From an uncultured Chloroflexia bacterium (GTDB lineage Bacteria; Chloroflexota; Limnocylindria; Limnocylindrales; CSP1-4), in the NCBI GenBank assembly GCA_963748675.1, contig CAVVJX010000005.1:516462-580461 (forward strand): a stretch of DNA of 64,000 nucleotides. The letters are read 5' to 3'. The position numbers and the translations under genes are program-made. How positions within the stretch are numbered: the stretch's first letter is position 1; each line of letters starts with the position of its first letter. Shown here in pieces: positions 9,778-53,990 of the stretch. The notes beneath the pieces were generated by a model. The model saw only the letters and a list, made by a program, of their open reading frames with translations, had not been told where the DNA came from and ran no database searches.

Positions 9778-13429
<3,652 letters not shown>

Positions 13430-13548
13430 CGGCGCAACGGTTCGATACGCACCTGTCGCGTCTCGAACGATGCGCGCCGCGAAGGTGCGTGCCCGCACGG
13501 GGGTAGAATCCCTGCCCACACTGCCTGCCTGATCGGAGCCTGCCCGCC

Positions 13549-14262
13549 ATGAAGATCTTCCTCGACACCGCCGACATCGAAGAGATCCGCACCGTCGCCC
13601 GCTGGGGCATCCTCGACGGGGTGACCACGAACCCGACGCTGTTCGCGAAGACCAGCGGCATGAGCTACGAGGAAGTCCTCAAGGAGATCTGCTCGATCAC
13701 GAGCGGACCGGTGTCCGCCGAGGTGGTCGCCGAGGACGTCGACGGCATGCTCACCGAGGGCCGCGCCTTCGCGAAGCTCGCCCCGAACATCGTCGTCAAG
13801 GTCCCGATGAGCGAGGAAGGTCTCGAGGCGATGAGCCGCTTCGCCGACGAGGGCATCAAGACCAACTGCACGCTGATCTTCACGGCCAACCAGGGCCTCC
13901 TGGCCGCCAAGGCGGGTGCCAGCCTGCTGTCGCCGTTCGTCGGGCGGCTCGACGACATCAACCAGGACGGCATGATCGTCGTCCGCGAATTGGCCGAGAT
14001 CGTCGCGATCCACGAGCTGGAGACCGAGGTCCTCGCGGCCTCCATCCGCAACCCGGTGCACATGACCCAGGCGGCCCTGGCCGGCGCGCACGTGGCGACG
14101 CTCCCGTTCAAGGTCCTCAAGCAGATGGTCCACCACCCGCTCACCGACAGCGGCATCACCCAGTTCCGCTCCGACTGGGAGAAGGCTCGCGAGGCGCTGG
14201 CGGCACGGGACGGCGGCGAGAAGAAGGAAGTCGCGGCCACGGCGGCCAAGCCCGGCGAGTAA
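13549..14262 (+). CDS. tal: Transaldolase (short Tal/FSA type)
   Basis: MKIFLDTADIEEIR...GVTTNPTLF...KVP (the Schiff-base Lys region); 237 aa. Upstream -10-like TAGAAT. Confidence 0.85.
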   Translation: MKIFLDTADIEEIRTVARWGILDGVTTNPTLFAKTSGMSYEEVLKEICSITSGPVSAEVVAEDVDGMLTEGRAFAKLAPNIVVKVPMSEEGLEAMSRFADEGIKTNCTLIFTANQGLLAAKAGASLLSPFVGRLDDINQDGMIVVRELAEIVAIHELETEVLAASIRNPVHMTQAALAGAHVATLPFKVLKQMVHHPLTDSGITQFRSDWEKAREALAARDGGEKKEVAATAAKPGE

Positions 14263-14328
14263 CCCGCGCCGGCCGGTCGGTACCGAGCGTCCGGCCGTGC
14301 CATCATCGGTGATCGAACGAGATCAGCG

Positions 14329-16155
14329 GTGAGCTCGCATCAGGACCGCTCGGAGGACGCGCCCGTGGCAGCGACAGAGGAGATACTCGGGCAGTTCCTG
14401 GGCGACGAGTCGTTCCCGGTGACCTGGGAGTCCGACGTCGAGAAGGACTTCTTCTGGGTCTACGACGACCTGCATTGCCCGCACCCGGTCAGCCCGATGT
14501 TCTTCGACATCGGTGGTTGGTGGCTGAGCTGCGACCACATGTTCCGTCGCTTCGGAACGCCGTTCGCGGTCGACTGGCTGGCCAAGAACGTCAACGGCTA
14601 CGTCTACACGACGGCCATCCCGGCCGACCCCGACCTGCGGATCGAGGGCACCGAGTACAGCTCGCGCTACGGGGCCCGCGTGCCGCGCGACGCGTCATAC
14701 GCGGCGGACATGGGCGCGTACCTCGACACCGTCCTGCCCGTGTATGGCGAGCATTTCGCCGATTGGTGGCACGACCGGCTCGTGCCCGAGATGCAGCGCA
14801 ACTTCGCGTCGCTCGAGGAGCGCCTCGACACCGCCCCCGGGATGTCGCTCGCCGAGGTGGCGGTGCTGCTCGAAGACGCGATCGACATGCACGATCGCCA
14901 CTGGAAGATCCACTGGATGCTCAACTTCGCCCAGCTGTCGGCGACCCTCAACCTGCGCGCGGTGATGGAGAAGCACCGCGGGGGAGTCGACGAGCAGTTG
15001 CTCGGGCGTCTCCAGAATTCCGCCTCCGACCGCAACTGGGACTCGATCGAGGCGCTCTGGCGGATGAAGAACGAGGTACGTGACGACGCGGAGCTGCGGA
15101 CGGCATTCGCCGCCGACGAGGTCCCCGATATCGTTCGGAACCTCCAAGGGACGGAGCGCGGCCGACGGTTCATCGCCGAGCGTGTCGAGCCGTATCAGCG
15201 GGAGTTCGGCTGGCACGCCGTCTGGAGCCACGAATTCATCTTCCCCACCGTGCGCGAGCACATGGAGCCGGCCATCGAGCTCGTTCGCGGCTACCTCACG
15301 ACGGACTACGACTTCCCGACGGCGATCGAGGCGATGCGTGCGGACATCGAAGGGGCATCGCGCGAGATCCTCGAGGGCCTCAGCGGGGACGCCCTCGAGG
15401 AGATGCGCGCCGCGAACGCGGTCAACCTCCGGATGGCGCCGCTCACCCCCGACCACCACTTCTACATCGACCAGGGGGCGAACGCCCACGTGCGCCTCGT
15501 CCTCATCGAAGTCGGGCGGAAGCTCGTCGACGCCGGCCGCCTCGACGAGCCGGACGACGTGATGTTCCTGCGCTACAACGAGCTCCGCAGCCTGATCGGC
15601 AGTGCGACCGCGCTCGATGCCCGCTCGATCGTCGCGGCTCGGCGCGCCGAGCGTGAGGCCGCCGCACGATTGCACCCGCGCGACTGGGTCGGCACGGTGA
15701 CGCCGTCGCAGCTCGCCTTCCCGTACCTCGTCAACTGGGGCTACCCGGACCGCTTCTACCAGACGCAGTCGGACGACGAGCGGTTGATCACGGGTATCGG
15801 GGGCTCGCCCGGCGTGATCGAGGGGGTCGCCCGGGTGGTGCGAACCGTCGACGAATTCGACGAGGTCCGTGACGGCGACATCCTCGTCTGCCAGATGACG
15901 AACCCGGCCTGGGTCGTCCTGTTCACGAAGATCGCCGGGCTCGTCACCGACACCGGCGGCACCACCTCGCATCCAGCCGTGCTCTCGCGCGAATTCGGGA
16001 TCCCGGCAGTCATCGGTACATCGGTGGCGACCCAGCGGATCGTCACGGGCGACCGCATCAGGATCGATGGGACGGCCGGTAGCGTCGAGATCCTCCGCGA
16101 CGAGGAGGCTCGACCGCACACGGCGTCGGCACCCGCGACGGCGATCGGACGATAG
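14329..16155 (+). CDS. PEP-utilizing-enzyme family protein: ~470-aa N-terminal domain of unknown family plus a C-terminal phosphohistidine swivel (mobile) domain; PpsA-like
   Basis: C-terminal GGTTSHPAVLSREFGIPAVIGT is the PEP-utilizers His signature. No ATP-grasp domain and no PEP/pyruvate TIM barrel. Confidence 0.7.
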   Translation: MSSHQDRSEDAPVAATEEILGQFLGDESFPVTWESDVEKDFFWVYDDLHCPHPVSPMFFDIGGWWLSCDHMFRRFGTPFAVDWLAKNVNGYVYTTAIPADPDLRIEGTEYSSRYGARVPRDASYAADMGAYLDTVLPVYGEHFADWWHDRLVPEMQRNFASLEERLDTAPGMSLAEVAVLLEDAIDMHDRHWKIHWMLNFAQLSATLNLRAVMEKHRGGVDEQLLGRLQNSASDRNWDSIEALWRMKNEVRDDAELRTAFAADEVPDIVRNLQGTERGRRFIAERVEPYQREFGWHAVWSHEFIFPTVREHMEPAIELVRGYLTTDYDFPTAIEAMRADIEGASREILEGLSGDALEEMRAANAVNLRMAPLTPDHHFYIDQGANAHVRLVLIEVGRKLVDAGRLDEPDDVMFLRYNELRSLIGSATALDARSIVAARRAEREAAARLHPRDWVGTVTPSQLAFPYLVNWGYPDRFYQTQSDDERLITGIGGSPGVIEGVARVVRTVDEFDEVRDGDILVCQMTNPAWVVLFTKIAGLVTDTGGTTSHPAVLSREFGIPAVIGTSVATQRIVTGDRIRIDGTAGSVEILRDEEARPHTASAPATAIGR

Positions 16156-16226
16156 GCACCTCGATGGCGACCGCCGCGCTGCTCGGTCGCGTCGTCATGG
16201 CCGACCGGGAGCTCTAGGCGCCGCCG

Positions 16227-17100
16227 ATGCGAGCCTTCGCGTACGAGCGGCCGACCGGCCTCGATGACGCCATCGCCTTGCTCGCCTCGGGGGATGCCGA
16301 GGCGCGCCCCCTGGCCGGCGGCACCGACCTGATCATCCGGCTCCGCGACGGCACGATCCGCCCGCGAACCGTGGTCGACATCAAGGGGATCGCCGAGCTC
16401 GACGGCGACATCCGCGATGGCGACGGGCACCTGCGGATCGGGGCCCGGACGGTGATGACGGACATCGTCCGCGACGAGCGCATCCAGCGTGACTACGAGG
16501 CCCTCGCCGAGGGAGCGGCCGTGGTCGGGTCCGCCCAGATCCGGAACCGGGCGACGCTGGCCGGCAACATCTGCAACGCCTCTCCCGCGGCGGACACGGC
16601 GCCGGCGCTCCTCGTGTACGGCGCGGTCGTTACCGTGGCGGGGCCCGCGGGGGACGCGGCGCATCCCGATCGACGACTTCTTCGTGAGCTCCGGTGTCAC
16701 GACGCTGGCGGCCGGCGAGCTCGTGACGTCGATCGAACTGCCACGTTCGCCGATCCGGCAAGGGGCCGTCCATGTCCGGCGGACCCGACGCCGTGGCCAC
16801 GACCTCGCGTCGGTCACGCTGGCCTGCGCCGTCCGTGCCGACGGGGTCACTCGGCTGGCGTACGGCAGCCTCGGGCCGCGGCCGGTGCTGGTCGTCGACG
16901 AGACCGGGGTCCTGGCCGATCCCGCGGCGCCGGACGAGTCGAAGATGCGGCGGCTCGAGGAGCTGTTCGTGGGCGCCAGCCCGTCCGCGCGTTCGATGCG
17001 GGCAAGCCCGGAGTACCGGCTCGCGATGCTGCGCGTGCTCGGCCTTCGGGCGGTCGACACGGCGATCGCGCGCCTGGCCGACGGGAATGGCCGGGCATGA
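16227..17100 (+). CDS. Molybdopterin dehydrogenase FAD-binding subunit (CoxM/XdhB-like); one frameshift near 16650 in a G5 run
   Basis: LAGGTDLIIRLRDG...ATLAGNICNASPAADTAP. The C-terminal half (IPIDDFFV...) is in the 16489 frame. A GGGGG run versus GGGG explains the shift. Confidence 0.75.
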
Positions 17101-17664
17101 CGACGCCTCGGCGGATCGACGTGACGGTCAACGGCCGTGCCCGGTCGATCGAGGTCGCGGCGCACCACACGCTCCTCGAGGTGCTGCGTGACGACCTCGG
17201 GCTGACCGGGACGAAGGAGTGCTGCCTGGTCGGCGAGTGCGGGGCCTGCACGGTGCTGGTCGACGACGTCAGCGTCGATTCGTGCCTGGTCCTCGCGGCC
17301 GAGGTGGACGGCGCGAGCGTCACGACCGTCGAGGGCCTCGCGACCGGCGACGGGCTCCATCCGCTCCAGCAGGCGTTCCTGGACACGGGCGCCGTGCAGT
17401 GCGGGTTCTGCATCCCGGGCCAGCTGATCGCGGCGCAGGCGCTGCTCGCCAACACCCCGCACCCGTCGCGCTCCGAGATCGAGGAAGGGCTCGCCGGGAA
17501 CCTGTGCCGGTGTGCCGGGTACGAGCAGATCATCGAGGCCGTGGTTTTGGCGGCGGCGCGTCGACGCGGCCGGCGGCCAGGCAGTCCCGCGAGGCGCGGG
17601 CGCCTACGCGCCGGCGATGGGGGACCGAGCATCGACGCCGGACGCCGACGTCGCGCCGCAATGA
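17097..17664 (+). CDS. (2Fe-2S)-binding small subunit of the Mo hydroxylase (CoxS/XdhC-like); C-terminal frame uncertain
   Basis: ATG overlaps the preceding TGA. CCLVGECGACTV...CGFCIPGQ...CRCAGYEQI. In frame it reads into the large subunit through an Arg-rich stretch with no stop. A +1 frame ends CAATGA exactly on the large-subunit ATG. Confidence 0.65.
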
Positions 17665-19916
17665 CCGGGAGTGTCGGCACGTCGCCGGCGCGGGTCGGCG
17701 GCATCGGGCGCGTGACGGGACAGCAGGCGTACGTCGCCGATCTCGATCTCGATGACGTGCTCCACGTGAAGCTCGTCACGCTCGATGTCGCCCGTGGCCG
17801 GATCGGGGAGATCGACACGAGCGCGGCGATGGACGTCCCGGGCGTTCGGCTCGTGATGACCGCCGCCGACCTGCCGCAGCCGATGCCGCGGTTCGGGCCC
17901 CAGCGGCGCGACCGACCCGTGCTGGCCGTCGGGGAGACGAAGTACCACGGTGAGCCCGTGGCGGCGGTCGCGGCCGAGACGTCCGATGCGGCGGAGGAGG
18001 GGGCACGGCTCGTCCGCGTTGCCTGCGAGGAGCTGCCGGCGAACCACACCCTCGCCGCCTCGCTGGCCGATGGGGCACCGCTCGTCCAGGACCCGGGCCT
18101 GCGACCGGACGATCCGCTCGCCGGGACCAACGTCCTCAGCGAGCACCGCTACGGCTGGGGCGACCTCGACGCCGCAGCGCGCGAGGCGGACGTCGTCACC
18201 GAGGGCACCTACACGTTCCCGATGGTCACCCAGTTCGCGATCGAGCCCCACGCCTTCATGGCAGCACCCGACGGCGACGGCATCGCGATCTGGAGCGCGA
18301 TCCAGCACCCGTACTGGTTGCAGCGGGTCATCGCGGACCTGGTCGGCCTGCCACTCGCCAAGGTTCGGGTCTTCGCGCCTGACCCCGGCGGGGCGTTCGG
18401 CGGCAAGCAGCACGCGAAGTACGAGCCGTTGCTCGCGTTCATGGCGCTCAAGACAGGCCGGCCCGTTCGGCTCGTCCTGAGCCTCGAGGAGACGTTCCAG
18501 GCCGTCCGTCGCGGGGCCGCGCAGGTCCACGTCCGGTCCGGCTTCCGCCGCGACGGGACCCTCGTGTTCCGGGACATCGAGGCGGACTACCTGATCGGCG
18601 CCTATGCCGACATCGCCGACCGGACGGTCGCCAAGGGCAGCTACACCTCCGGGGGGCCGTATCGATGTCCGGCTACGCGTATCGTCGCCCGGAGCGTGCT
18701 GTCCCACACGGTCCCGTCCACCGCGTTCCGTGGGTTCGGCAATCCCCAGCAGATCTGGGCGGTCGAATCGAGCATGGACGAAGCCGCCGTGGAGCTCGGG
18801 ATCGATCCCCTGGCGCTCCGTCTCAAGAATCTCGCCAGGCCCGGTGAGGTCTTCCTCCCCGACGACCGCCCCGCCGACGGCGACTGGGCCAAAAGCGTGG
18901 ACCGCGCCGCCGAATTGATCGGTTGGGGTACGCCGCTCCCGCCGGGGCGCGGACGGGGATTGGCCGTCGGACTGAAATCCGGCCCCACGACGGGCCTCTC
19001 GTACTCGACGGTCCGGCTGCTCGCAGACGGGAGCGTGGTCGTCAACGCCGGCACGTCCGACATGGGCCAGGGCGCCCGGACGATCTTCGCTCAGATCGCG
19101 GCGGGGGAGCTCGGCGCGCCGATGGAATGGGTCAGGGTCGTCATGGGCGATACCGCCGTCGTCCCGTACGACCAACAGACGTCGGCGAGTCGATCGTCCG
19201 TGCTGATGGGCAACTCCGTCCTGCTCGCCTGCCAGGACGTCCAGGCCAAGATCCGGGCGATGGCGGCACGGCTCGAATCGCTGGACGAGGATGCCATCGA
19301 GGTGTCGCGCGGCGAGGTCCGGATCGGTGACCGCGTCCTGCCGATCCGCGACGTTCTGGTCCGCGGATTGGGTCGGCTCGGTGGGGAGGTCATCGGCATC
19401 GGCGAGGCGCGCAAGGAGGCGGAGCCAGAGCATCCGCTCGGTGGGACCGCCGCGTTCTACGAGTTCAACTGCACCGCCGTGGAGGTCGAGGTCGATCGCG
19501 CGACCGGCGACGTCGTCATTGCCCGCTACGTGACCGTCTCGGACGTCGGCAAGGCGCTCAACCCGACGCAGGTCCGAGGCCAGGACGAGGGCGCCGCGAT
19601 CATGGGCCTCGGTCACACGTTGATGGAGCAGTACATCTACGACGACACGGGCCGGCTCCGGAACCTCGGTGCGATCGACTATCGGATCCCGACGAGCATG
19701 GACCTGCCGCTCCAGATGGAGAGCGACATCGTCGAGAACGAGGACGGCCCCGGGCCGTATGGCGCCAAGGGCATGAGCGAGGGCGCGCTGCTCCCGGTCG
19801 CGCCGGCCGTGGCGGCGGCGGTCCGCGACGCGACCGGCGTCGTCATCCGCGACCTGCCGCTCACACCGGAGCGGGTCTGGCGGGCGATCCAGGAGTCGGA
19901 GGCTCCCGCGCCGTGA
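17661..19916 (+). CDS. Molybdopterin-binding large subunit of a xanthine-dehydrogenase-family hydroxylase (752 aa)
   Basis: GGAFGGKQH, TAFRGFGNPQ, GQGARTIFAQI, EGALLPVAPAVAAAV. XDH / aldehyde-oxidoreductase-like signatures, and the CO-dehydrogenase AYRCSFR motif is absent. Confidence 0.8.
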   Translation: MTGSVGTSPARVGGIGRVTGQQAYVADLDLDDVLHVKLVTLDVARGRIGEIDTSAAMDVPGVRLVMTAADLPQPMPRFGPQRRDRPVLAVGETKYHGEPVAAVAAETSDAAEEGARLVRVACEELPANHTLAASLADGAPLVQDPGLRPDDPLAGTNVLSEHRYGWGDLDAAAREADVVTEGTYTFPMVTQFAIEPHAFMAAPDGDGIAIWSAIQHPYWLQRVIADLVGLPLAKVRVFAPDPGGAFGGKQHAKYEPLLAFMALKTGRPVRLVLSLEETFQAVRRGAAQVHVRSGFRRDGTLVFRDIEADYLIGAYADIADRTVAKGSYTSGGPYRCPATRIVARSVLSHTVPSTAFRGFGNPQQIWAVESSMDEAAVELGIDPLALRLKNLARPGEVFLPDDRPADGDWAKSVDRAAELIGWGTPLPPGRGRGLAVGLKSGPTTGLSYSTVRLLADGSVVVNAGTSDMGQGARTIFAQIAAGELGAPMEWVRVVMGDTAVVPYDQQTSASRSSVLMGNSVLLACQDVQAKIRAMAARLESLDEDAIEVSRGEVRIGDRVLPIRDVLVRGLGRLGGEVIGIGEARKEAEPEHPLGGTAAFYEFNCTAVEVEVDRATGDVVIARYVTVSDVGKALNPTQVRGQDEGAAIMGLGHTLMEQYIYDDTGRLRNLGAIDYRIPTSMDLPLQMESDIVENEDGPGPYGAKGMSEGALLPVAPAVAAAVRDATGVVIRDLPLTPERVWRAIQESEAPAP

Positions 19917-22045
19917 CCTACACGTTCCCCTTGGACGCGGCGCATCCCGGGACGCTCGACGACGCCAAGGCGCTCGTCGGCGGCAAGGCCGCGAACCTCG
20001 GGGTCATGGCGCGCGACCTCGGCCTTCCGGTGCCGCCGGGCTTCGCGATCACGACGGCGACGTGCCGCGTCTTCCTCGCGAGCGGGTGGCCGGACGGACT
20101 CGACGACGAGATTCGCGCCCGGATGGCCGACATCGAAGCCGCCGTCGGGCGCCGCTTCGGCGACCCGGCAGACCCGCTGCTCGTCAGCGTCCGCTCGGGT
20201 GCTCCGGTGTCGATGCCCGGGATGATGGACACGATCCTGAACCTCGGCATCAACGAGGCGACCACCGTCGGGCTCGGCCGGACAGCCGGCAGCAAGGCCT
20301 TCGCGCAGGCGTGTCGAGAGCGCTTCGTCGCGAGCTTCCGGTCCATCGTCGGTGTCCAGGACGTCCCCGACGACCCGTGGACCCAGCTCCGACTCGCGAT
20401 CGAAGCCGTGTTCCGGTCGTGGGACAGCCCCCGAGCGAAGGCCTACCGGCAGAAAGAGGGGATCGCGGACGACCTTGGGACGGCTGTGACCGTTCAGGCG
20501 ATGGTCTTCGGCAATCGCGGACCGGATTCCGGCACCGGCGTCGTGTTCACGCGCAACCCCGCGACCGGCGAGCCCGGCCTCTACGGCGACGTCATGTTCG
20601 AGGCCCAGGGGGAGGACGTCGTCGCCGGCACCCATCAGACCGAGCCGATCGCCGTCCTCGACGAGCGCATGCCGGCCGTCGCTGCCGACCTGCGTACGCA
20701 CGCGACACGGTTGGAGCGCCACTACGCCGACTTGTGCGACATCGAGTTCACGATCGAGGACGGGCGGCTCTGGATGCTCCAGGTCCGGGTCGGCAAGCGC
20801 AGCCCGCAGGCCGCGGTGCGGATGGCCGTGGACATGGCCGAGGACGACGCGTTCCCCTTGTCGCGCACGGAAGCCGTCGAGCGGGTCGCGTCGCTGCTCG
20901 CCGATCCGCCCGAGACCGCGACGGGCCGCACTGACGCGGCATCGCCCCTGACGGTCGGCCTGGCCGCCTCGCCGGGAGTGGCGAGCGGCCCGATCGTCAC
21001 AAATCCCGAAGCGGCCGTGGCCGCCGCCGATGCAGGACGTGCCGCGATCCTCGTCCGCGCCGAGACGTCCCCTGACGACGTCCACGGCATGGCCAAGGCG
21101 GCCGGCATCCTGACCTCGCGGGGTGGCCTCGCGAGCCACGCTGCAGTCGTCGCACGCGGGTGGGGGATCCCGGCCGTCGTCGGCGCTTCGGGGATCGAGG
21201 TCCGCGACGGCGAGGTCGTCGTGGGCGATCGGACCTTGAAGTCCGGCGAGGTCGTGACGATCGATGGCAGCACCGGCGAGGTCTTCGAAGGCACGGTCGC
21301 CGGGGCGACAGAGCCGATGCCGGAGGCTCGGACGCTGCTGGCCTGGGCGACTGATCTCGGAATCCCAATCGGTGACGACGGCGAGGCCGAATCGGAGCCC
21401 GCCGCTGTGGCGGCGACCGGTCGCGACGCCACACCAGACGACTGCATCCGCGCGCTCGCGATCAAGGGCTTCGCCCAGGCCGAGGCGGTCGCCGACTTCG
21501 TCCTGTCAACGCCAGACGAGGTCCGCCCGATCCTGGACCAGGTCACCGCGGACGAGCTGGCCGCGACGGTCGCAGGCGCCTACAAGCTGACCGATGCCGG
21601 GACGAGCCGGGCGACCGAGATCCTCGTCGCGGAGCGAGACGCGTGGGGAACGGACCGCGCGGTCGCGGCACTCGACACGTTCCTGGAGCTCGACCACCGC
21701 GTGAAGGTCATCGTCACCGCCTGGCAGCTCCGCGGCGACCCGGACAGCGGCGTCATCAACGACCACTCGGACGCCGACTACGACCGTGGCGTGCTGGAGG
21801 ACCTCGCCGCCCTCCACGGGGATGCCATGACCTGGCTGAGCACGCAGGCCGAGGGTCTCAACCGACTGGCCGACTACGGTGTTCGGCTCGGTCGCGCTCT
21901 TGATGGGGCCGCCGGTGGCGACCACCGGTTCGTGGCCTCACCGCGAGTCGACAGCTACCACGGCATCTGGTTCGAGCTCCACGAGGACCTGATCCGCCTC
22001 GCCGGCCGCACGCGCGAGGAGGAATCCGCCGCCGGTCGCGCCTGA
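19913..22045 (+). CDS. Pyruvate-phosphate-dikinase-like phosphotransferase: PPDK N-terminal ATP-grasp domain plus phosphohistidine domain, with no PEP/pyruvate domain and an unknown ~230-aa C-terminal region
   Basis: LVGGKAANLGVM...PLLVSVRSGAPVSMPGMMDTILNLG (PPDK_N) and GGLASHAAVVARGWGIPAVVG (His domain). Start overlaps the large-subunit stop. Confidence 0.75.
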   Translation: MTYTFPLDAAHPGTLDDAKALVGGKAANLGVMARDLGLPVPPGFAITTATCRVFLASGWPDGLDDEIRARMADIEAAVGRRFGDPADPLLVSVRSGAPVSMPGMMDTILNLGINEATTVGLGRTAGSKAFAQACRERFVASFRSIVGVQDVPDDPWTQLRLAIEAVFRSWDSPRAKAYRQKEGIADDLGTAVTVQAMVFGNRGPDSGTGVVFTRNPATGEPGLYGDVMFEAQGEDVVAGTHQTEPIAVLDERMPAVAADLRTHATRLERHYADLCDIEFTIEDGRLWMLQVRVGKRSPQAAVRMAVDMAEDDAFPLSRTEAVERVASLLADPPETATGRTDAASPLTVGLAASPGVASGPIVTNPEAAVAAADAGRAAILVRAETSPDDVHGMAKAAGILTSRGGLASHAAVVARGWGIPAVVGASGIEVRDGEVVVGDRTLKSGEVVTIDGSTGEVFEGTVAGATEPMPEARTLLAWATDLGIPIGDDGEAESEPAAVAATGRDATPDDCIRALAIKGFAQAEAVADFVLSTPDEVRPILDQVTADELAATVAGAYKLTDAGTSRATEILVAERDAWGTDRAVAALDTFLELDHRVKVIVTAWQLRGDPDSGVINDHSDADYDRGVLEDLAALHGDAMTWLSTQAEGLNRLADYGVRLGRALDGAAGGDHRFVASPRVDSYHGIWFELHEDLIRLAGRTREEESAAGRA

Positions 22046-22095: not shown

Positions 22096-22422
22096 ATGGG
22101 TGCCATGACGTCCTCGCCCGCCCGACCGGTCATCACGAACGCGCCTTCGCGCGACCGCTACGAGGCCCATATCGACGGTGAGCTCGCGGGCGTCCTCGAA
22201 TACAAGGTCGCGCGGGGGCGGATCGCGCTCATCCACACCGAAGTGCCGCCGGTCCACGAGGGCCGTGGCGTGGGGTCTGCGCTCGTCCGCTTCGCGCTTG
22301 ACGACGCCCGCCGGCGTGAGCTTCGGGTCATCCCGACCTGTCCGTACGTCCAGGACTACCTCAAGCGACACCCGGAGGCCGAAGACATCGTTGTCGGGCG
22401 CGCCCGGACGACCCCCGCCTGA
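22096..22422 (+). CDS. Small GNAT-family N-acetyltransferase (YjdC-like, ~100 aa)
   Basis: HTEVPPVHEGRGVGSALVRFALDDAR...VIPTCPYV matches the minimal GNAT fold family. Confidence 0.6.
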   Translation: MGAMTSSPARPVITNAPSRDRYEAHIDGELAGVLEYKVARGRIALIHTEVPPVHEGRGVGSALVRFALDDARRRELRVIPTCPYVQDYLKRHPEAEDIVVGRARTTPA

Positions 22423-22443: not shown

Positions 22444-23339
22444 TCAGCGCCCCTTCGAGTATCCCTTCGCGGTCAGCTTGTCCCAGAGCGACCCGGCGTT
22501 GTTGTTCTGGATGTGATCCATCATGTAGCCCTGCCCGACGTCGACCGGGCCGAAGGCGTCGTCGAAGCGGACCCGCTGCGATGGTCTCCTCGCGGGTCCA
22601 GCCCTTGGCGACCGCGTCGGCGACCGCGGCCTTCCAGGCAAGCAGCACGGCCCGCTGGGTGTCCACGTAGCTGAGTGGCTGCACCGGCCCGTGGTCCGGG
22701 CACGAGACGGTCGACGTCCAGCTGCCGGATGCGCTCCAGCGCCTCGATCCATTGGTCGACGTCCGACGTCATCAGCCACGTCTGGACCTCGCTGAAGATC
22801 GTGTCGCCGGTGAACACGACGCGCTCCTCCGGCACGTGCACCGCGAGCTGGCCCGGCGTGTGGCCGGGCGTGTGGAGCAGGTGGAACGTGTGGTCGCCGA
22901 CTCGCAGCGTCAGGTCGCCCGTGAACACGACGGTGCCCTTGTTCGGATCCTCGTAGTAGACGTCACGGTCGGGGATCAGCGGGGCCGCCTCGGGGTCATC
23001 GGTCGGGATGGCCTCGAGCGCGTACGCGAACGGATCGAGGGCCGCATTCGGGTCCATGAAGTTGTCGTACAGGCCCTGGTGGTTGACCACCGGCACGCCC
23101 TTGAACCAGTAGTTGCCGAAGATGTGATCGACGTGGTGCTCGGTGTTGATGAGGTAGCGGATCGGGCCGTGCGTCTCGGCCTCCGCGCGCATCGCGATCG
23201 CGCGCGTCGGCAGCTGTGGCGTGTCGATGTGGACGACCCCGTCGGACGTGGTGACGAAGCTCGGGTTGCAGCCGCGCAGCTTGGTCGTCGTGTAGACGTT
23301 GGGCGTGACGCGCTCGAGCTCGATGGCGGCGGTCGCCAT
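22444..23339 (-). CDS. MBL-fold metallo-hydrolase; two frameshifts near the 3' end (about 22565 and 22690)
   Basis: HHVDHIFG (HxHxDH), HTPGHTPG, VFTGDT. The C-terminus is recovered from ORFs 22361..22684 and 22444..22779. Extra G and C bases in homopolymer runs. Confidence 0.7.
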
Positions 23340-23341
23340 CG

Positions 23342-24127
23342 TTACTGGGTCGCCGTCAGGCCGCCGTCGATCCCCAGGATCTGGCCGGTCACGAACGAGG
23401 CCGCGTCGGAACAGAGGAAGATCGCCGGGCCGACGATGTCCCGCGTCTCCCCGACCCGCCCGAGCGGGATCCGGTTGACGATGCCGGCCTTGAACTCCGG
23501 GTCCGCGAGCAGCGACGCGACCTGGGGCGTGTCCACGAACGTCGGCATGATCGCGTTGACGCGGATGCCGTGCGGTGCCCACTCCGTCGCCCACTGGCGG
23601 GTCAGGGAATTGATCGCGCCCTTGGCCGCCACGTACGCCGAATAGCCGGCCTTGATCCCGAGGTTGCCGCGGACCGACGAGATGTTGAGGATCCGGCCGC
23701 CACCGCCCTGGGCGATCATCTGGCGCGCGGCGGCCTGCGTCGGGACGACCGTGCTGCGCACGTTCAGGTCCATGATCCAGTCCCAGTCCGAGCGGGGATA
23801 GACCTCGGCGTTGTGCAGGACCTTGCCGGCACCGCCGCCGACGGCGTTGACCAGGATGTCGAGGCGGCCGAAGCGCTCGACCGCCCCCTTGACCAGCCGC
23901 TCGGCGTCCGCCTCGTCCGTCGCATCGGCGACCACGGCCAGACCTTCGCGGCCGGCCGCCTGGACCTGCCCGACGGTGGCGTCGAGCGACTCCTGCGTCC
24001 GACCGCCGACGACGACGCTCGCTCCGGCTCCGGCGAGGGCCACCGCCAACGCCGATCCGATGCCACCGCCACCGCCCGGGACGAGGGCCACGAGGCCGTC
24101 CAGGCTGAAGTCGTCGAGTCCGGCCAT
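23342..24127 (-). CDS. SDR-family oxidoreductase
   Basis: LVPGGGGGIGSALAV (TGxxxGIG-like), NAVGG, YSAYVAAK (YxxxK). Confidence 0.8.
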   Translation of the reverse strand: MAGLDDFSLDGLVALVPGGGGGIGSALAVALAGAGASVVVGGRTQESLDATVGQVQAAGREGLAVVADATDEADAERLVKGAVERFGRLDILVNAVGGGAGKVLHNAEVYPRSDWDWIMDLNVRSTVVPTQAAARQMIAQGGGGRILNISSVRGNLGIKAGYSAYVAAKGAINSLTRQWATEWAPHGIRVNAIMPTFVDTPQVASLLADPEFKAGIVNRIPLGRVGETRDIVGPAIFLCSDAASFVTGQILGIDGGLTATQ

Positions 24128-24274: not shown

Positions 24275-25216
24275 ATGACGCTGAACCTCGACGGCCTGAT
24301 TCCCGCCACCGTGCTGCCCATGGACGCCGACGGCGGCATCGATGAGGCCGCCCTGCGGTCGTACATCGGCTGGGTCGTGGACCAGGGACCCGTCGCCCTC
24401 GCGATCAACGTCGACACCGGCGAGGGGCCGCACCTGACCCACGACGAGAAGGTCCGCATCCTCAAGATCGTCCGCGACGTGACGGACACGCCCATCGTCG
24501 CGGGGCTGGCCGGCCCGTCCACCGATGCGGCCGTTCGCCAGGCTCGCGACTTCCGGGCCGCCGGCGCGGATGCGCTGCTCGTGTTCCCGATCCCGGCCTA
24601 CCTGAGCCAGCCGCTTGATCCGCGCGTCCCGGTCGCCTATCACGAGGCCATCGCCGACGTCGGCCTGCCGCTGATCCTGTTCCAGCTGCAGCCGGCCCTG
24701 GCCGGTGTCAACTTCGAGACCGACACGCTCCAGGCGATGGCGTCGGTGGACGGCGTCGTCGCCATCAAGGAAGCGTCGTTCGACGCGCGACGCTTCGTCG
24801 ACACGGCTCGACTCCTGGAGCAGCTCCCGCGCAAGATCACCCTGCTGACCGGCAACGACAACTTCATCCTGGAATCGTTCCTGCTGGGTGCGACGGGCGC
24901 GCTCATCGGCTTCGGCGCGGTGATGACCCGCGAGCAGGTCGACATGATCGCCGCGTGGCAGGCCGGTGATACCGAGACGGCGATGGCCCTCGGTCGCCGG
25001 GTCCAGCGCCTCGCCGATGTCGTGTTCGCGGCCCCCGTCGGTGACTACCGGGTCCGGCTGAAGGAATGCCTGCGAATCCTGGGTGTCCTGGAGAACGCCC
25101 ACGTTCGTCGCCCGCTCCTGCCGCTCGGCGATGACGAACGCGCCTTCCTCAGCAGCGTCCTGGCCGAGGTCGGCCTGCGGGAGGACACCCCGGCATCGCC
25201 GGTGCTCGCCCGATGA
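24275..25216 (+). CDS. DapA-family (dihydrodipicolinate-synthase-like) class I aldolase
   Basis: Length and pattern (PMDADGGID, Schiff-base region GVVAIKEAS) fit DHDPS/KDG-aldolase family proteins. Divergent from the SDR across a 147-bp promoter gap. Confidence 0.8.
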   Translation: MTLNLDGLIPATVLPMDADGGIDEAALRSYIGWVVDQGPVALAINVDTGEGPHLTHDEKVRILKIVRDVTDTPIVAGLAGPSTDAAVRQARDFRAAGADALLVFPIPAYLSQPLDPRVPVAYHEAIADVGLPLILFQLQPALAGVNFETDTLQAMASVDGVVAIKEASFDARRFVDTARLLEQLPRKITLLTGNDNFILESFLLGATGALIGFGAVMTREQVDMIAAWQAGDTETAMALGRRVQRLADVVFAAPVGDYRVRLKECLRILGVLENAHVRRPLLPLGDDERAFLSSVLAEVGLREDTPASPVLAR

Positions 25217-26827: not shown

Positions 26828-27447
26828 CGGATCGCCTGGACACCGATACCCGCACCGAGGTCACCGGCGCCCCGACCGACCTGACGGGCGGCATGCCGGC
26901 GACGATGGAGGACGGCCCCCGGCCGCGCCTCGACGATGGGGAGCGCGCCACGCTCGCGGCGATCGCCGACCACTTCATCCCGGCCGCTGACGGGATGCCC
27001 TCGGCGGCGGACATCCTGACCGACGATCGGCTCGCGTTCGTCGTTCGCGCTCGCCCCGACCTCGCGGACGCGCTGCAGGCTGCCCTGCGCTCGGAGCTCG
27101 GCGCCGACGTCGGCGAGCGCCTCACGGCCCTCGCGGCCGAGCCGACTAACCTGGCGGCCCTCCAGCTGGCGATCGTCGGGGGCTACTACACCGACAAGCG
27201 GGTTCGTGAGCTGATCGGCTACCCGGGGCAGATGGCGATCGAGGTCCGGTCGTGGGAATACCCCGTCTATCTCGAGGAAGGGCTGATCGACGCCGTGCTC
27301 GCACGCGGGCCGGTGTGGCGTGACCCGGCGACCGGGCAGCGGGCCGTCGCCACGGGCGCGCCGACGACCTACGCAGAGCGCTGGTCGGACGTGAAGGCGG
27401 ACGCGATGGCGTCCGAAGGAGGAATCGATGGCCGCGATCGCACCTGA
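26824..27447 (+). CDS. Gluconate-2-dehydrogenase subunit-3-like small subunit that partners the GMC dehydrogenase
   Basis: ATG overlaps the GMC stop (ATGA). ~200-aa protein with TLAAIADHFIPA, typical of GMC dehydrogenase small subunits. Confidence 0.55.
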   Translation: MTDRLDTDTRTEVTGAPTDLTGGMPATMEDGPRPRLDDGERATLAAIADHFIPAADGMPSAADILTDDRLAFVVRARPDLADALQAALRSELGADVGERLTALAAEPTNLAALQLAIVGGYYTDKRVRELIGYPGQMAIEVRSWEYPVYLEEGLIDAVLARGPVWRDPATGQRAVATGAPTTYAERWSDVKADAMASEGGIDGRDRT

Positions 27448-28906: not shown

Positions 28907-28917
28907 GCGCGATCGAC

Positions 28918-30737: not shown

Positions 30738-30747
30738 GCGACCTGCT

Positions 30748-49971: not shown

Positions 49972-50129
49972 CGCTCACTCGACCCCCGCGACCGGTAGGG
50001 GCGCCCGGGCCGTCACGGCTCCGGGCGCTCAACCGTTCGTCATCGGCCAACGACCCGACGTCCGCCCGCGCTCCTCGGCGCGCGCGAGCTGATCGATTCG
50101 CCCCGTGCAGGGACTGGAGGCAGGATCCG

Positions 50130-53940: not shown

Positions 53941-53956
53941 GCGTCTCTCCAGCCCG

Positions 53957-53983
53957 GGGACGGTCCGGCTCACGGACCGTCCC
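53957..53983. terminator. Bidirectional hairpin with an 11-bp perfect stem (GGGACGGTCCG gctca CGGACCGTCCC) between convergent genes
   Basis: Seen in sequence between the stop of the ThuA-fusion gene (+) and the stop of the DUF1080 gene (-). Confidence 0.45.
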
Positions 53984-53990
53984 GACCGGA

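What the first reader, a model, noticed from the sequence alone, without database searches (positions are those of the whole stretch)
14329..22045. Split dikinase-like phosphotransferase pair bracketing a molybdenum hydroxylase: a candidate ATP-dependent activation system for a hydroxylated (hetero)aromatic
Two proteins of the PEP-utilizing-enzyme superfamily flank a three-subunit xanthine-dehydrogenase-family enzyme (FAD 16227, FeS 17097, Moco 17661). The flanking proteins are:
- Upstream, 14329-16155: an unknown ~470-aa domain plus a phosphohistidine swivel domain.
- Downstream, 19913-22045: a complete PPDK-type ATP-grasp nucleotide domain plus a phosphohistidine domain, but no PEP/pyruvate TIM barrel, and a novel 230-aa C-terminus.
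The five genes are co-directional with 0-70 bp gaps or 4-bp overlaps. Splitting an ATP-grasp carrier from an acceptor-binding His protein is the architecture of phenylphosphate synthase (PpsAB), and conceptually of rifampin phosphotransferase. Coupling it to a Mo hydroxylase suggests hydroxylation followed by ATP-dependent phosphorylation (or the reverse) of an unknown substrate. I know of no characterised system with this composition.
Basis: partly seen in the sequence, partly recalled or inferred. Interest (0 to 1): 0.75.

Follow-up and report, generated by a model that had tools for sequence, protein, structure and literature searches.

The report
Dikinase pair flanking a molybdenum enzyme
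An uncultured soil Chloroflexota bacterium keeps a phosphate-carrying protein, a three-subunit molybdenum oxidoreductase and a cut-down pyruvate-phosphate-dikinase relative side by side; related gene pairings recur in distant bacteria and archaea, and one has genetic support (3-hydroxypyridine breakdown), so this is a new variant of a poorly understood system, not a wholly new one.

Summary
The five-gene block is real. It is conserved in every sufficiently long locus among 85 Limnocylindria (Chloroflexota) loci.

- **P1 (14365-16155)** is the acceptor-binding plus swivel-His component of a two-component small-molecule dikinase (PpsA/CreH/HpeH architecture, 24-28% identity).
- **The middle genes** encode an XDH-family FAD/[2Fe-2S]/Moco enzyme. 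In this window the FAD and FeS genes each carry a +1 insertion. These are probably assembly errors, because pyrG and an MBL gene are broken too.
- **The last gene (19913-22045)** is a VadK/Rv1127c-type truncated PPDK: an ATP-grasp plus catalytic His, with ATP-site residues intact. Its "novel" C-terminus models confidently as a winged helix plus four-helix bundle. This domain exists as a separate ~200-aa protein next to truncated PPDKs in Mycobacterium avium and Diaphorobacter plasmids.

P1 orthologues (42-50% identity) in Moorella, Thermomicrobium, Nitrososphaerales and others lie beside an XDH-family trio in 7 of 10 contexts. They lie beside a PpsB/CreI-like ATP-grasp gene in 10 of 10.

A published precedent exists. 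In the Ensifer 3hpd cluster, the molybdenum hydroxylase needs adjacent PEP-utilizing and PPDK-like genes.

Most likely this is an ATP-driven phosphorylation step coupled to Mo-enzyme oxidation of an unknown hydroxylated substrate. I rate it a new variant of a known kind.

The parts
14365..16155 (+). P1: acceptor-binding (RPH/PpsA-type, Pfam Rph_4th) domain plus C-terminal phosphohistidine swivel domain. The ORF opens at GTG 14329; the likely start is GTG 14365.
   Evidence: Pfam PEP-utilizers at aa 514-584. Precomputed PF27448 + PF00391 on 84-90% identical homologues. Full-length NCBIfam PRK08296.1-5 alignment at 177 bits, below the cutoff of 578. 24.3% and 27.9% identity over the full length to Azoarcus PpsA and R. 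ruber CreH. SD-like GGAGGA lies before 14365.
15970..15972 (+). Codon of the predicted catalytic His548 of P1 (motif GGTTSH).
   Evidence: Invariant across 11 sequences of 30-90% identity. Conserved in all 78 motif instances found across the window and the 85 Limnocylindria loci. Position computed.
16227..17100 (+). FAD-binding (CoxM-like) subunit gene of the XDH-family enzyme, interrupted by a +1 insertion at about 16649.
   Evidence: FAD_binding_5 positions 2-140 lie in one frame; positions 131-169 plus CO_deh_flav_C lie in the next frame. There is an extra G relative to L006, whose gene is intact at 293 aa.
17097..17664 (+). [2Fe-2S] (CoxS-like) subunit gene. A +1 insertion at about 17560 removes its stop from the frame; the original stop TGA at 17662-17664 overlaps the Moco ATG.
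   Evidence: Fer2 + Fer2_2. Three-frame translation; the higher GC3 of the alternative frame was counted by hand from that sequence. Alignment to L006.
17661..19916 (+). Molybdopterin-binding large subunit of the XDH family, intact.
   Evidence: Ald_Xan_dh_C, MoCoBD_1 and MoCoBD_2. The best solved relative is 4-hydroxybenzoyl-CoA reductase alpha at 325 bits, against quinoline 2-oxidoreductase at 232 bits. No NCBIfam equivalog cutoff is reached.
19913..21350 (+). PPDK-like protein, N-terminal part: PPDK-type ATP-grasp plus swivel domain (VadK/Rv1127c type). Catalytic His409 is at 21137-21139.
   Evidence: NCBIfam PRK05878 at 507 bits, above the cutoff of 456. 397 bits to plant PPDK, with the PPDK sequence blocks GGK, LLVSVRSGA..SMPGMMDT, D.EFT and LQ.R.GKR conserved in the alignment; their assignment to ATP-site residues is from memory. 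47.6% identity to the M. avium pP7a truncated PPDK and 44.7% to the Diaphorobacter one. The GGLASH motif is conserved in the lineage.
21434..22045 (+). PPDK-like protein, C-terminal module: winged helix (from about 21434) plus four-helix bundle (from about 21593).
22447..24127 (-). MBL-fold hydrolase (22447-23318, frameshifted in the window) and SDR (23345-24127). These travel with the block in most relatives.
   Evidence: tblastn. The SDR is 42-46% identical to SDRs next to P1 orthologues in Moorella and Luteitalea. An MBL + SDR pair also flanks the block in L101.

Best explanation
The block encodes one pathway module. An ATP-dependent small-molecule dikinase works together with an XDH-family molybdenum oxidoreductase on the same, still unknown, hydroxyl-bearing substrate.

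Proposed steps:
1. The PPDK-like protein binds ATP in its ATP-grasp domain and generates a phosphohistidine. This step is demonstrated only for the homologue VadK, which phosphorylates its own His.
2. The phosphoryl group reaches His548 of P1. This happens either because the ATP-grasp domain acts on P1's swivel domain in trans, as PpsB/CreI/HpeI do, or by His-to-His transfer. This step is inferred.
3. P1's swivel domain delivers the phosphate to a hydroxyl group of the substrate bound in its RPH/PpsA-type domain. This is inferred from family chemistry.
4. The phosphate ester is what the Mo enzyme oxidises or hydroxylates, or else the Mo-enzyme product is what gets phosphorylated. The phosphate is later removed by a hydrolase. 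This is inferred from the Cre-pathway logic and from the genetic requirement in 3hpd.

In this lineage a VadK-type truncated PPDK, fused to its usual ~200-aa winged-helix partner, appears to have replaced the PpsB-like ATP-grasp subunit that P1 orthologues have elsewhere. The frameshifts in the FAD and FeS genes are most likely assembly artefacts.
For: Domain identities.

Linkage within the lineage:
- Every Limnocylindria locus long enough has P1, FAD, FeS, Moco and the PPDK-like gene.
- PPDK-like is directly next to Moco in 34 of the 40 loci with full-length hits.
- The Mo/PPDK-like operon is inverted relative to P1 in five loci, yet still adjacent.
- The Moco stop and the PPDK-like start overlap (GTGA).

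Linkage beyond the lineage (P1 orthologues of 42-50% identity):
- An XDH-family trio lies next to them in Moorella thermoacetica, a Moorella-like metagenome contig, Nitrososphaerales, Thermomicrobium roseum, L089, L100 and L101. That is 7 of 10 contexts.
- In Nitrososphaerales the P1 orthologue sits between the FeS and Moco genes.
- All 10 contexts have a PPDK_N gene, stand-alone or fused to DUF4202. The Moorella, T. roseum and Nitrososphaerales ones were compared and are 32-41% identical to PpsB/CreI.
- In the window and the 85 Limnocylindria loci, the only ATP-grasp found within +/-10 kb of P1 is the PPDK-like protein.

Pairing of H-like proteins with VadK-type truncated PPDKs and the ~200-aa partner recurs on Diaphorobacter, M. 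avium and Rhodococcus plasmids.

Fused proteins with one ATP-grasp and two swivel modules exist.

Both catalytic His motifs are conserved in every motif instance detected across the lineage.

Literature:
- HpeHI/CreHI/PpsAB mechanism (PMC12167813).
- VadK autophosphorylates His422 and co-purifies with Rv1126c (PMC13400623).

Assembly-error reading: all seven frameshifting differences from L006 in pyrG, FAD and FeS are +1 insertions, five of them in pyrG.
Against: - No biochemical data exist for any member of the P1 orthogroup.
- The PPDK-like protein carries its own swivel His, so it does not need P1. P1's usual partner type (PpsB-like) could be encoded elsewhere in the genome, which I could not scan.
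- VadK is described as a regulatory kinase that binds methylcitrate-cycle enzymes, not as a small-molecule kinase subunit.
- The C-terminal module looks like a DNA-binding regulator.
- In 3hpd no phosphorylated intermediate was detected.
- Two P1-orthologue contexts (Anaerolineales, Desulfitobacteriaceae) lack any XDH-family gene within 8 kb, and Luteitalea has only the FeS subunit next to a PQQ dehydrogenase.
- The HprK/PEPCK-like P-loop protein and the GntR regulator, which accompany the module in most relatives, are absent from this window.
- The frameshifts spare P1, Moco and PPDK-like. Under a uniform error rate that is unlikely (my estimate is about 0.015), so real decay of some genes is not excluded.
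Confidence: 0.55

Rival explanations
1. The PPDK-like protein is a regulator, not P1's phosphodonor. Like VadK, it autophosphorylates in response to ATP. Through its fused winged-helix/helical-bundle module it controls transcription of the operon or the activity of the Mo enzyme. P1 would be charged by an unlinked PpsB-type ATP-grasp protein.
For: - VadK is reported as a regulatory histidine kinase (PMC13400623).
- Some homologues are annotated MarR family.
- The PPDK-like protein is the fastest-evolving member of the block (median 69% identity, against 80-81% for P1 and Moco).
- Several loci, including this window, lack the GntR gene and might rely on this module instead.
Against: - No PpsB-like gene lies within +/-10 kb of P1 in the window or the 85 loci, whereas all 10 P1-orthologue contexts outside the lineage have one adjacent.
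- On three unrelated plasmids, truncated PPDK plus the ~200-aa partner sit beside H-like proteins with no other ATP-grasp gene annotated in the fetched stretches.
Confidence: 0.25
2. The dikinase proteins act on the molybdenum enzyme itself rather than on the substrate. Their role would be maturation, cofactor handling, or activation by phosphorylation.
For: - In 3hpd the two proteins are required for HpdA activity, yet no phosphorylated small-molecule intermediate was seen.
- The genes are interleaved with Mo-enzyme subunit genes in Nitrososphaerales, T. roseum and L089.
Against: - P1's N-terminal domain belongs to the small-molecule-binding RPH/PpsA/PigC family.
- P1 orthologues also occur without any XDH-family neighbour, or with a PQQ dehydrogenase instead.
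- Known XDH-family maturation factors (XdhC, CoxDEF) belong to other families; this is from my own knowledge and was not tested here.
Confidence: 0.1
3. The block is decaying in this organism. The FAD and FeS genes are true pseudogenes, so no functional Mo enzyme is made here.
For: - Two frameshifts lie in the Mo-enzyme genes.
- The GntR and P-loop genes present in most relatives are missing.
- Frameshifts are non-uniformly distributed.
Against: - pyrG has five +1 insertions and the MBL gene two frame changes.
- All seven frameshifting differences in pyrG, FAD and FeS are +1 insertions, which is typical of a read or assembly artefact.
- The frameshifted genes otherwise keep 62-83% amino-acid identity to intact orthologues.
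- L006 has the same GntR-less, P-loop-less organisation with intact genes.
Confidence: 0.08
4. The two flanking proteins are simply a split canonical PEP synthase or PPDK that makes PEP from pyruvate.
For: Automated annotations call the homologues 'pyruvate, water dikinase' or 'pyruvate, orthophosphate dikinase'.
Against: - No PEP-utilizers_C TIM barrel was found in any of the ORFs I scanned across the window.
- P1's N-domain is RPH/PpsA-type.
- The PPDK-like C-terminus is a wHTH plus helical bundle.
Confidence: 0.02

Closest known systems
3hpd cluster of Ensifer adhaerens HP1 (HpdA1A2A3A4 + orf9 'pyruvate-phosphate dikinase' + orf10 'PEP-utilizing protein mobile subunit'); Wang et al., bioRxiv 10.1101/2020.01.08.898148
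   Same: An XDH-family Moco/FeS/FAD enzyme is encoded next to a PEP-utilizing swivel protein and a PPDK-like protein. A GntR-family regulator is in the cluster (present in most relatives of this window). Both phosphotransfer genes are genetically required for the Mo-enzyme reaction. The mechanism is unresolved.
   Different: HpdA has a fourth, separate SRPBCC subunit, and maleamate-pathway genes lie alongside; neither is in this window. The size and type of orf9 are not given in the text I could read. Sequence orthology could not be tested because the HP1 genome is a WGS record absent from the searchable collections. Here the PPDK-like protein carries its own swivel His and a fused wHTH/helical-bundle module.
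Two-component small-molecule dikinases PpsAB (Thauera/Azoarcus phenylphosphate synthase), CreHI (4-cresol), HpeHI (hydroxyphenylethanones); PMC12167813
   Same: P1 has the H/A-component architecture: an RPH-type acceptor domain plus a C-terminal swivel with the catalytic His. It aligns full-length with Azoarcus PpsA and R. ruber CreH. P1 orthologues in other phyla sit beside PpsB/CreI-like ATP-grasp proteins (32-41% identity).
   Different: P1 is only 24-28% identical, whereas the characterised members share about 45%. It keeps Thr at His-2, where those enzymes have Met. In this lineage the ATP-grasp partner is not PpsB-like. No phenylphosphate carboxylase, P450 or CBS-domain PpsC genes are present. 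An XDH-family enzyme is the linked oxidoreductase instead.
VadK (Rv1127c) and its operonic partner Rv1126c of Mycobacterium tuberculosis; PMC13400623
   Same: It is a truncated PPDK with an ATP-grasp and a catalytic His but no PEP/pyruvate domain, and it exceeds the NCBIfam PRK05878 cutoff. The ~200-aa partner arrangement seen on M. avium pP7a (truncated PPDK followed by a 201-aa protein) matches the domain order of the fusion here.
   Different: Here the two are fused into one 710-aa protein. The gene is translationally coupled to a Mo-enzyme operon and linked to an H-type acceptor protein, rather than lying in a prpDC/methylcitrate neighbourhood. Homology of the C-terminal module to Rv1126c itself was not tested; only homology to the analogous plasmid-borne partners was.
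4-Hydroxybenzoyl-CoA reductase (HcrABC, Thauera aromatica; PDB 1rm6)
   Same: It is the best solved relative of the Moco subunit (325 bits over the whole length). It works in the same anaerobic phenol pathway as phenylphosphate synthase (my own knowledge).
   Different: The NCBIfam equivalog score is 436 against a cutoff of 994. The FAD subunit (293 aa in L006, two Cys) lacks the extra [4Fe-4S] insertion of HcrB.
Rifampin phosphotransferase (RPH) and prodigiosin ligases PigC/RedH
   Same: They have the same three domain types. P1 matches their C-terminal ~400 residues (NCBIfam RedH 154 bits, PigC 141 bits; PDB 5fbs 98 bits).
   Different: Those are single polypeptides of about 860-880 aa with a PEPS-type ATP-grasp. 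Here the domains are split and the ATP-grasp is PPDK-type.

Membership tests
Two-component small-molecule dikinase (PpsAB/CreHI/HpeHI) | H/A component: RPH-type acceptor-binding domain followed by a swivel domain, with the catalytic His near the C-terminus. | tested here: met
   PF27448 + PF00391 on close homologues. Pfam swivel at aa 514-584. Full-length blastp to Azoarcus PpsA (24.3%) and R. ruber CreH (27.9%). His548 is invariant.
Two-component small-molecule dikinase (PpsAB/CreHI/HpeHI) | I/B component: stand-alone PEPS-type ATP-grasp protein (~320-380 aa) without a swivel domain, encoded next to the H/A gene. | tested here: not met
   The only ATP-grasp in the window or the 85 related loci is the 710-aa PPDK-type protein, which has its own His and is 24-30% identical to PpsB/CreI. 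The feature is met in all 10 P1-orthologue contexts outside the lineage.
Two-component small-molecule dikinase (PpsAB/CreHI/HpeHI) | ATP-dependent phosphorylation of a phenolic hydroxyl, giving AMP + Pi. | not testable with these tools
   This needs an enzyme assay.
VadK / PRK05878 truncated PPDK | PPDK-type ATP-grasp plus phosphohistidine domain, with no PEP/pyruvate TIM barrel. | tested here: met
   PPDK_N + PEP-utilizers only. NCBIfam PRK05878 at 507 bits, above the cutoff of 456. The alignment to PPDK stops at about residue 480.
VadK / PRK05878 truncated PPDK | Catalytic His and ATP-site residues retained. | tested here: met
   GGLASH with His409. The GGK, LLVSVRSGA..SMPGMMDT, D.EFT and LQ.R.GKR blocks are conserved in the alignment with C. 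symbiosum PPDK; assignment of these blocks to ATP-site residues is from memory. The His motif is conserved in the lineage.
VadK / PRK05878 truncated PPDK | Associated ~200-aa operonic partner (Rv1126c type). | tested here: inconclusive
   The C-terminal module is homologous to the 201- and 206-aa proteins adjacent to truncated PPDKs on M. avium pP7a and a Diaphorobacter plasmid. The Rv1126c sequence itself was not available for comparison.
VadK / PRK05878 truncated PPDK | ATP/Mg-dependent autophosphorylation. | not testable with these tools
   Shown only for M. tuberculosis VadK (PMC13400623).
3hpd-type Mo hydroxylase + dikinase system | XDH-family Moco, [2Fe-2S] and FAD subunits adjacent to PEP-utilizing and PPDK-like genes. 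| tested here: met
3hpd-type Mo hydroxylase + dikinase system | Separate SRPBCC (CoxG-like) fourth subunit. | tested here: not met
   No such ORF lies in or beside the block. One is present in the related context L089.
3hpd-type Mo hydroxylase + dikinase system | Maleamate-pathway genes (2,5-dihydroxypyridine dioxygenase and others) in the cluster. | tested here: not met
   Pfam and NCBIfam scans of ORFs across the window show none.
3hpd-type Mo hydroxylase + dikinase system | Sequence orthology to HpdA1, orf9 and orf10. | not tested
   HP1 sequences (WGS VHKK01) are not in any searchable collection here.
4-Hydroxybenzoyl-CoA reductase | Alpha subunit reaching the equivalog score; beta subunit with an extra [4Fe-4S] loop. 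| tested here: not met
   TIGR03194 scores 436 bits against a cutoff of 994. The FAD subunit of L006 is 293 aa with two Cys and no insertion.
Canonical PEP synthase / PPDK | C-terminal PEP/pyruvate-binding TIM barrel (PEP-utilizers_C), in the protein or encoded nearby. | tested here: not met
   Absent from both proteins and from all ORFs scanned in the window.

The most novel reading that the evidence does not exclude
VadK-type truncated PPDKs may be the phosphodonor arm of a histidine phosphorelay, a PTS-like chain for small-molecule activation. They would autophosphorylate from ATP and pass the phosphoryl group to the swivel His of a separate acceptor-binding protein (P1 type). Their Rv1126c-like winged-helix partner, fused here, would couple the phosphorylation state to gene or enzyme control. 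In this locus the relay would feed a molybdenum enzyme that acts only on the phosphorylated substrate. If true, this would give the orphan M. tuberculosis virulence kinase VadK an ancestral biochemical role. It would also explain why the Mo hydroxylase HpdA needs two phosphotransfer proteins.
Probability: 0.15. Interest if true: 0.8.

Novelty: new variant of a known kind. Interest (0 to 1): 0.6.

Why it matters
Three threads that have been studied separately meet in this one operon:
- phenol-type two-component dikinases (PpsAB, CreHI, HpeHI);
- the unexplained need of a molybdenum hydroxylase for two phosphotransfer proteins (3hpd);
- the truncated PPDK VadK, a newly described M. tuberculosis virulence factor whose phosphoryl acceptor is unknown.

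The comparative data here show two things. First, the acceptor-protein/Mo-enzyme pairing extends across several bacterial phyla and the Archaea. Second, VadK-type proteins and their ~200-aa partner repeatedly sit beside acceptor-type swivel proteins.

That yields concrete, cheap experiments: phosphotransfer between purified proteins, and genetics in Thermomicrobium roseum or Moorella thermoacetica. These could reveal a general 'phosphorylate, then oxidise' strategy for molybdenum enzymes and suggest what VadK-like kinases phosphorylate. The substrate in Limnocylindria, an abundant uncultured soil and freshwater lineage, remains unknown.

Tried and rejected
- **Single-sequence AlphaFold of the whole PPDK-like protein** gave pLDDT 39.8 and was discarded.
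- **The Foldseek afdb50 library** was unavailable. Foldseek against the PDB found no whole-domain match for the C-terminal module at E <= 0.001.
Distant contexts therefore had to come from a homologue search with P0247 plus contig look-ups.
- **A homologue search with the C-terminal 231 aa** returned 606 hits. All 120 listed hits looked like same-lineage sequences, mostly fragments.
- **Three literature searches** found nothing: 'phenylphosphate synthase' + 'xanthine dehydrogenase family', and 'PEP-utilizing enzyme' + 'molybdenum hydroxylase'. A later wording found the 3hpd paper.
- **Attempts to obtain a 3hpd-type cluster from the plasmid collection failed.** The Variovorax WDL1 hit is an unrelated, fragmented PEP-utilizing locus.
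- **NCBIfam and Pfam gave no family** for the C-terminal module, the 295-aa P-loop protein or the Diaphorobacter 304-aa protein, apart from weak HprK_C/PEPCK P-loop hits and DUF7065.
- **The promoter/terminator scan was uninformative** at 71% GC.
- **4-Hydroxybenzoyl-CoA reductase was considered and rejected** as an identity for the Mo enzyme: the score is below the cutoff and there is no [4Fe-4S] insertion.
- **A split PEP synthase was rejected** because there is no TIM barrel.
- **A sugar-acid or glyceraldehyde substrate was considered** because of neighbours in some relatives (SDR, cyclase, GAPDH-like, PGK, sugar ABC transporters) and NCBIfam glyceraldehyde-dehydrogenase hits. The evidence is too weak to prefer it over a phenolic or heteroaromatic substrate.

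Full report
**Source and quality of the window.** The window is about 71% G+C. Its closest relatives are metagenome-assembled genomes of Candidatus Limnocylindria/Limnocylindrales, the 'CSP1-4' lineage of Chloroflexota. Locus L006 is 88% identical at the nucleotide level and collinear over 13498-22041.

Relative to L006, the window has single-base insertions that break several genes:
- five in pyrG;
- one in the FAD-subunit gene, at about 16649, in a run of G;
- one in the [2Fe-2S]-subunit gene, at about 17560.

An MBL-fold gene is also split into three frames. All seven frameshifting differences in pyrG, FAD and FeS are +1 insertions, and pyrG is normally essential. I therefore read them as assembly artefacts. 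The fact that P1, Moco and the PPDK-like gene are untouched is not what a uniform error rate predicts, so real decay is kept as a minor rival.

**What is at the coordinates.**
- 16227-19916 reads as one 1229-codon ORF in the window, because of the two insertions.
- P1 probably starts at GTG 14365, which has a GGAGGA 8 nt upstream.

Pfam finds the following:
- a swivel domain at the C-terminus of P1;
- FAD_binding_5/CO_deh_flav_C, Fer2/Fer2_2 and Ald_Xan_dh_C/MoCoBD_1/MoCoBD_2 in the middle genes;
- PPDK_N plus a swivel domain in the last protein.

No PEP/pyruvate TIM barrel occurs in these proteins or in any ORF scanned across the window. This removes the 'split PEP synthase' reading.

**P1.** The '470-aa unknown domain' is not unknown.
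- Close homologues carry Pfam PF27448 (Rph_4th).
- NCBIfam aligns P1 end to end with PRK08296-type proteins and with the C-terminal ~400 residues of RedH, PigC and rifampin phosphotransferase. All scores are below the family cutoffs.
- I fetched a canonical phenylphosphate synthase cluster (Azoarcus sp. KH32C pAZKH: PpsA, PpsB, CBS-domain PpsC, ppcBDAG) and a Cre-type cluster (Rhodococcus ruber Y14). P1 aligns over its full length with PpsA (24.3% identity) and CreH (27.9%).
- The catalytic His (His548, motif GGTTSH) is invariant.

P1 is therefore an H/A-type component of the two-component small-molecule dikinase group defined by Dexter et al. (PMC12167813). It belongs to a separate orthogroup, since the characterised members share about 45% identity. 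Unlike those enzymes, which have Met at this position, Limnocylindria P1 keeps Thr at His-2. That is the regulatory position in PPDK and PEP synthase.

**The molybdenum enzyme.** It is an ordinary three-subunit XDH-family enzyme by domain content.
- No NCBIfam equivalog cutoff is reached. Se-dependent XDH, aldehyde oxidoreductase, XdhA and 4-hydroxybenzoyl-CoA reductase alpha all score about 436-444 bits.
- Among solved structures, 4-hydroxybenzoyl-CoA reductase alpha is clearly the closest (325 bits, against 232 for quinoline 2-oxidoreductase).
- The FAD subunit has no extra [4Fe-4S] insertion, so it is not that enzyme.

The substrate cannot be read from the sequence.

**The PPDK-like protein.**
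- Residues 1-480 are closely related to genuine PPDKs (397 bits). The sequence blocks I take, from memory, to be the ATP-site blocks are conserved, as is the catalytic His (His409, GGLASH). About 48 residues of the nucleotide-domain helical insert are missing.
- It exceeds the NCBIfam cutoff for PRK05878, the truncated 'PPDK' family that I believe includes M. tuberculosis Rv1127c (507 bits against 456).
- That protein was recently characterised as VadK. It autophosphorylates His422 with ATP/Mg2+ and co-purifies tightly with its operonic partner Rv1126c (PMC13400623).

The last 230 residues were modelled with a 61-sequence alignment at pLDDT 90.9. The fold is a winged helix followed by a four-helix bundle:
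- Foldseek's best whole-domain matches, none significant, are wHTH-plus-helical regulators.

This module is not lineage-specific:
- A stand-alone 206-aa homologue (37.5% identity, E 1.6e-33) lies between an H-like PEP-utilizing protein and a 506-aa truncated PPDK (44.7% identical to the N-terminal part here) on a Diaphorobacter plasmid.
- M. avium pP7a has truncated PPDK (47.6% identity), then a 201-aa homologue, then an acyl-CoA dehydrogenase, then an H-like protein.
- On Rhodococcus pLW3 the module is fused to an AMP-binding protein beside a truncated PPDK and an H-like protein.

The window's protein is thus a fusion of a VadK-type kinase with its usual small partner. Direct comparison with Rv1126c itself was not possible.

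**Conservation of the linkage.** Within Limnocylindria (85 loci, P1 66-92% identical), every locus long enough carries P1, FAD, FeS, Moco and the PPDK-like gene.
- In most loci a GntR/FCD regulator and a 295-aa protein with an HprK/PEPCK-like P-loop lie between P1 and FAD.
- Both are missing in the window and in L006, L025, L027 and L037.
- In five loci the Mo/PPDK-like operon is inverted relative to P1 but still adjacent.
- An MBL-fold hydrolase and an SDR usually travel with the block.

Beyond the lineage, I used a 45%-identical representative (P0247) to reach other phyla. Ten contexts of the P1 orthogroup were examined:
- Moorella thermoacetica Y72;
- a Moorella-like metagenome contig;
- a Nitrososphaerales archaeon;
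- Luteitalea;
- the Thermomicrobium roseum megaplasmid;
- an Anaerolineales MAG;
- a Desulfitobacteriaceae MAG;
- three further contigs (L089, L100, L101).

The results were:
- All ten have a PPDK_N gene next to or near the P1 orthologue, stand-alone or fused to DUF4202. The Moorella, T. roseum and Nitrososphaerales ones were compared and are 32-41% identical to PpsB/CreI.
- Seven have an XDH-family trio. In the archaeon the P1 orthologue lies between the FeS and Moco genes. In L101 the order is H, ATP-grasp-DUF4202, FAD, FeS, Moco.
- Luteitalea keeps only the [2Fe-2S] protein (64% identical to the window's) beside a PQQ dehydrogenase.
- Two contexts have no such oxidoreductase.

Recurrent companions are:
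- the P-loop protein (37-47% identical to the Limnocylindria one) or, alternatively, DUF4202, which gives a weak HD-domain match;
- a PF04199 cyclase-family hydrolase;
- an SDR (42-46% identical to the window's);
- a GntR/FCD regulator.

In the window and the 85 Limnocylindria loci, no PpsB-like gene is seen within 10 kb of P1. The only ATP-grasp there is the PPDK-like protein.

**Published precedent.** Wang et al. (bioRxiv 10.1101/2020.01.08.898148) reported the following for Ensifer adhaerens HP1:
- The XDH-family 3-hydroxypyridine dehydrogenase HpdA1A2A3A4 converts 3-hydroxypyridine to 2,5-dihydroxypyridine only when the adjacent orf9 ('pyruvate-phosphate dikinase') and orf10 ('PEP-utilizing protein mobile subunit') are present.
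- Disruption of either gene abolishes growth.
- No phosphorylated intermediate was detected, and the role of the two proteins was left open.
- Similar clusters were reported in Actinobacteria, Thermoleophilia, Rubrobacteria and Proteobacteria.

The window differs from 3hpd in three ways: it lacks an SRPBCC subunit, it lacks maleamate-pathway genes, and its ATP-grasp protein is of the VadK type with a fused wHTH module. I could not obtain HP1 sequences to test orthology.

**Most likely mechanism (confidence about 0.55).** The block is a 'phosphorylate and oxidise' module.
1. The PPDK-like protein uses ATP to form a phosphohistidine. This is shown only for VadK.
2. The phosphoryl group reaches P1's His548, either in trans at the ATP-grasp site as in PpsAB/CreHI/HpeHI, or by His-to-His transfer. 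This is inferred.
3. P1 phosphorylates a hydroxyl group of the substrate. This is inferred from family chemistry.
4. The Mo enzyme acts on the phosphate ester, or its product is what gets phosphorylated. A hydrolase (MBL-fold here; DUF4202/HD-like elsewhere) later removes the phosphate. The R. ruber Cre-type cluster I fetched does encode two HD-domain proteins. It would also explain why only 2,5-dihydroxypyridine was seen in 3hpd.

The replacement of a PpsB-like subunit by a VadK-type protein in the same gene neighbourhood is my reading of the comparative data. It is not a demonstrated fact.

**Rivals.**
- The main rival (0.25) is that the PPDK-like protein is a regulator, as proposed for VadK. 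It would use its winged-helix module, and P1 would be served by an unlinked ATP-grasp.
- Action on the Mo enzyme itself (0.10).
- True pseudogenisation (0.08).
- A split PEP synthase (0.02).

**Substrate.** All characterised H-type kinases act on phenolic or alcohol hydroxyls or an activated carbonyl, and 3hpd acts on a hydroxypyridine. This favours a hydroxylated (hetero)aromatic. The neighbours are mixed:
- FAA-hydrolase, ABM and cyclase genes in T. roseum and L089 look like ring-cleavage follow-up steps.
- SDR, cyclase, GAPDH-like, PGK, LarA and sugar ABC transporter genes in Moorella, Anaerolineales and Desulfitobacteriaceae look like sugar-acid metabolism.
- The window itself is rich in sugar-oxidation genes.

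I would put no more than about 0.35-0.4 on a (hetero)aromatic substrate.

**Verdict.** The claim of no precedent fails, two 'unknown' domains are now placed, and the second protein is of a different type than assumed. I rate this a new variant of a known but mechanistically unsolved kind. Its real interest lies in linking VadK-type kinases to small-molecule dikinase acceptor proteins, and in showing the dikinase/Mo-enzyme pairing to be widespread.

Noticed in passing
window 11700-13258 (pyrG), 22447-23318 (MBL, minus strand), 16649, 17560: The window has clustered +1 single-base insertions relative to the closest relative L006: five in pyrG and one each in the FAD and FeS genes. The MBL gene is split over three frames. 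The 40-45 kb ABC-transporter region also gives only partial domain hits, suggesting more of the same.
   Followed up: partly
L002 12500-13387; L086 11213-12166; L087 5228-6121; absent from the window: A ~295-aa protein with an HprK/PEPCK-like P-loop (GGESNHGKS) has no confident family assignment. It is a conserved companion of the P1 orthogroup from Chloroflexota to Moorella (47% identity) and Nitrososphaerales (37%). It could be a regulatory kinase for the swivel Thr or a third kinase subunit.
   Followed up: partly
L092 9112-9729; L088 6915-7931; L101 9688-11130; L100 4719-5255: DUF4202 appears in the P1-orthologue clusters that lack the P-loop protein. It has a weak HD-domain match (E 7e-4). 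It is fused to the [2Fe-2S] subunit in Luteitalea and to the ATP-grasp protein in L101. It is a candidate phosphohydrolase of the pathway.
   Followed up: partly
proteins P0310, P0332, P0344, P0378 (~1400 aa) and P0259 (1123 aa): Natural fusions carry one PPDK_N ATP-grasp and two swivel domains (an RPH-like module followed by a second H-like module). P0259 is a tandem of two H-like modules.
   Followed up: partly
window 15952-15972 versus 21119-21139: In Limnocylindria the P1 swivel motif is GGTTSH, with Thr at the PPDK/PEPS regulatory position. Distant P1 orthologues have Leu there, and the PPDK-like protein has Ala (GGLASH).
   Followed up: partly
window 13549-14262 and relatives (L001 8808-9914, L048, L058, L059, L065): A transaldolase-family gene is almost always directly upstream of P1: either the short FSA/TalC type or, divergently, a long 368-aa type. 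It is unclear whether this is synteny or function.
   Followed up: no
window 24275-32307: A run of genes looks like a sugar-acid oxidation cluster: DHDPS-family aldolase, GMC oxidoreductase, a gluconate-2-dehydrogenase-subunit-3-like protein, aldehyde dehydrogenase, SDR and CoA-transferase.
   Followed up: no
window 49815-57933: This region carries ThuA, GSDH, PKD/CBM6, 3-keto-disaccharide hydrolase and ROK genes. ORFs 49815-52166 and 51814-53940 overlap by about 350 bp, which suggests another frameshift.
   Followed up: no
window 9778-12441 (minus strand): This is an amidase with a TAT signal at residues 323-342 of the ORF. The real start is therefore near 11480, and the long 5' extension that overlaps pyrG antisense is a high-GC ORF artefact.
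   Followed up: no
window 22096-22422: A small 108-aa ORF lies directly after the PPDK-like gene. An ORF of similar size (98 aa) occupies the same position in L001. It was not characterised.
   Followed up: no
L092 (Thermomicrobium roseum NC_011961.1 56118-72461): A cultured organism carries the orthologous module on its megaplasmid: Tm-1-like ATP-binding protein, PEP hydrolase family protein, GntR, cyclase, ATP-grasp, DUF4202, FAD subunit, FAA hydrolase, ABM, H-like protein, Moco and FeS. It is a practical system for experiments.
   Followed up: partly
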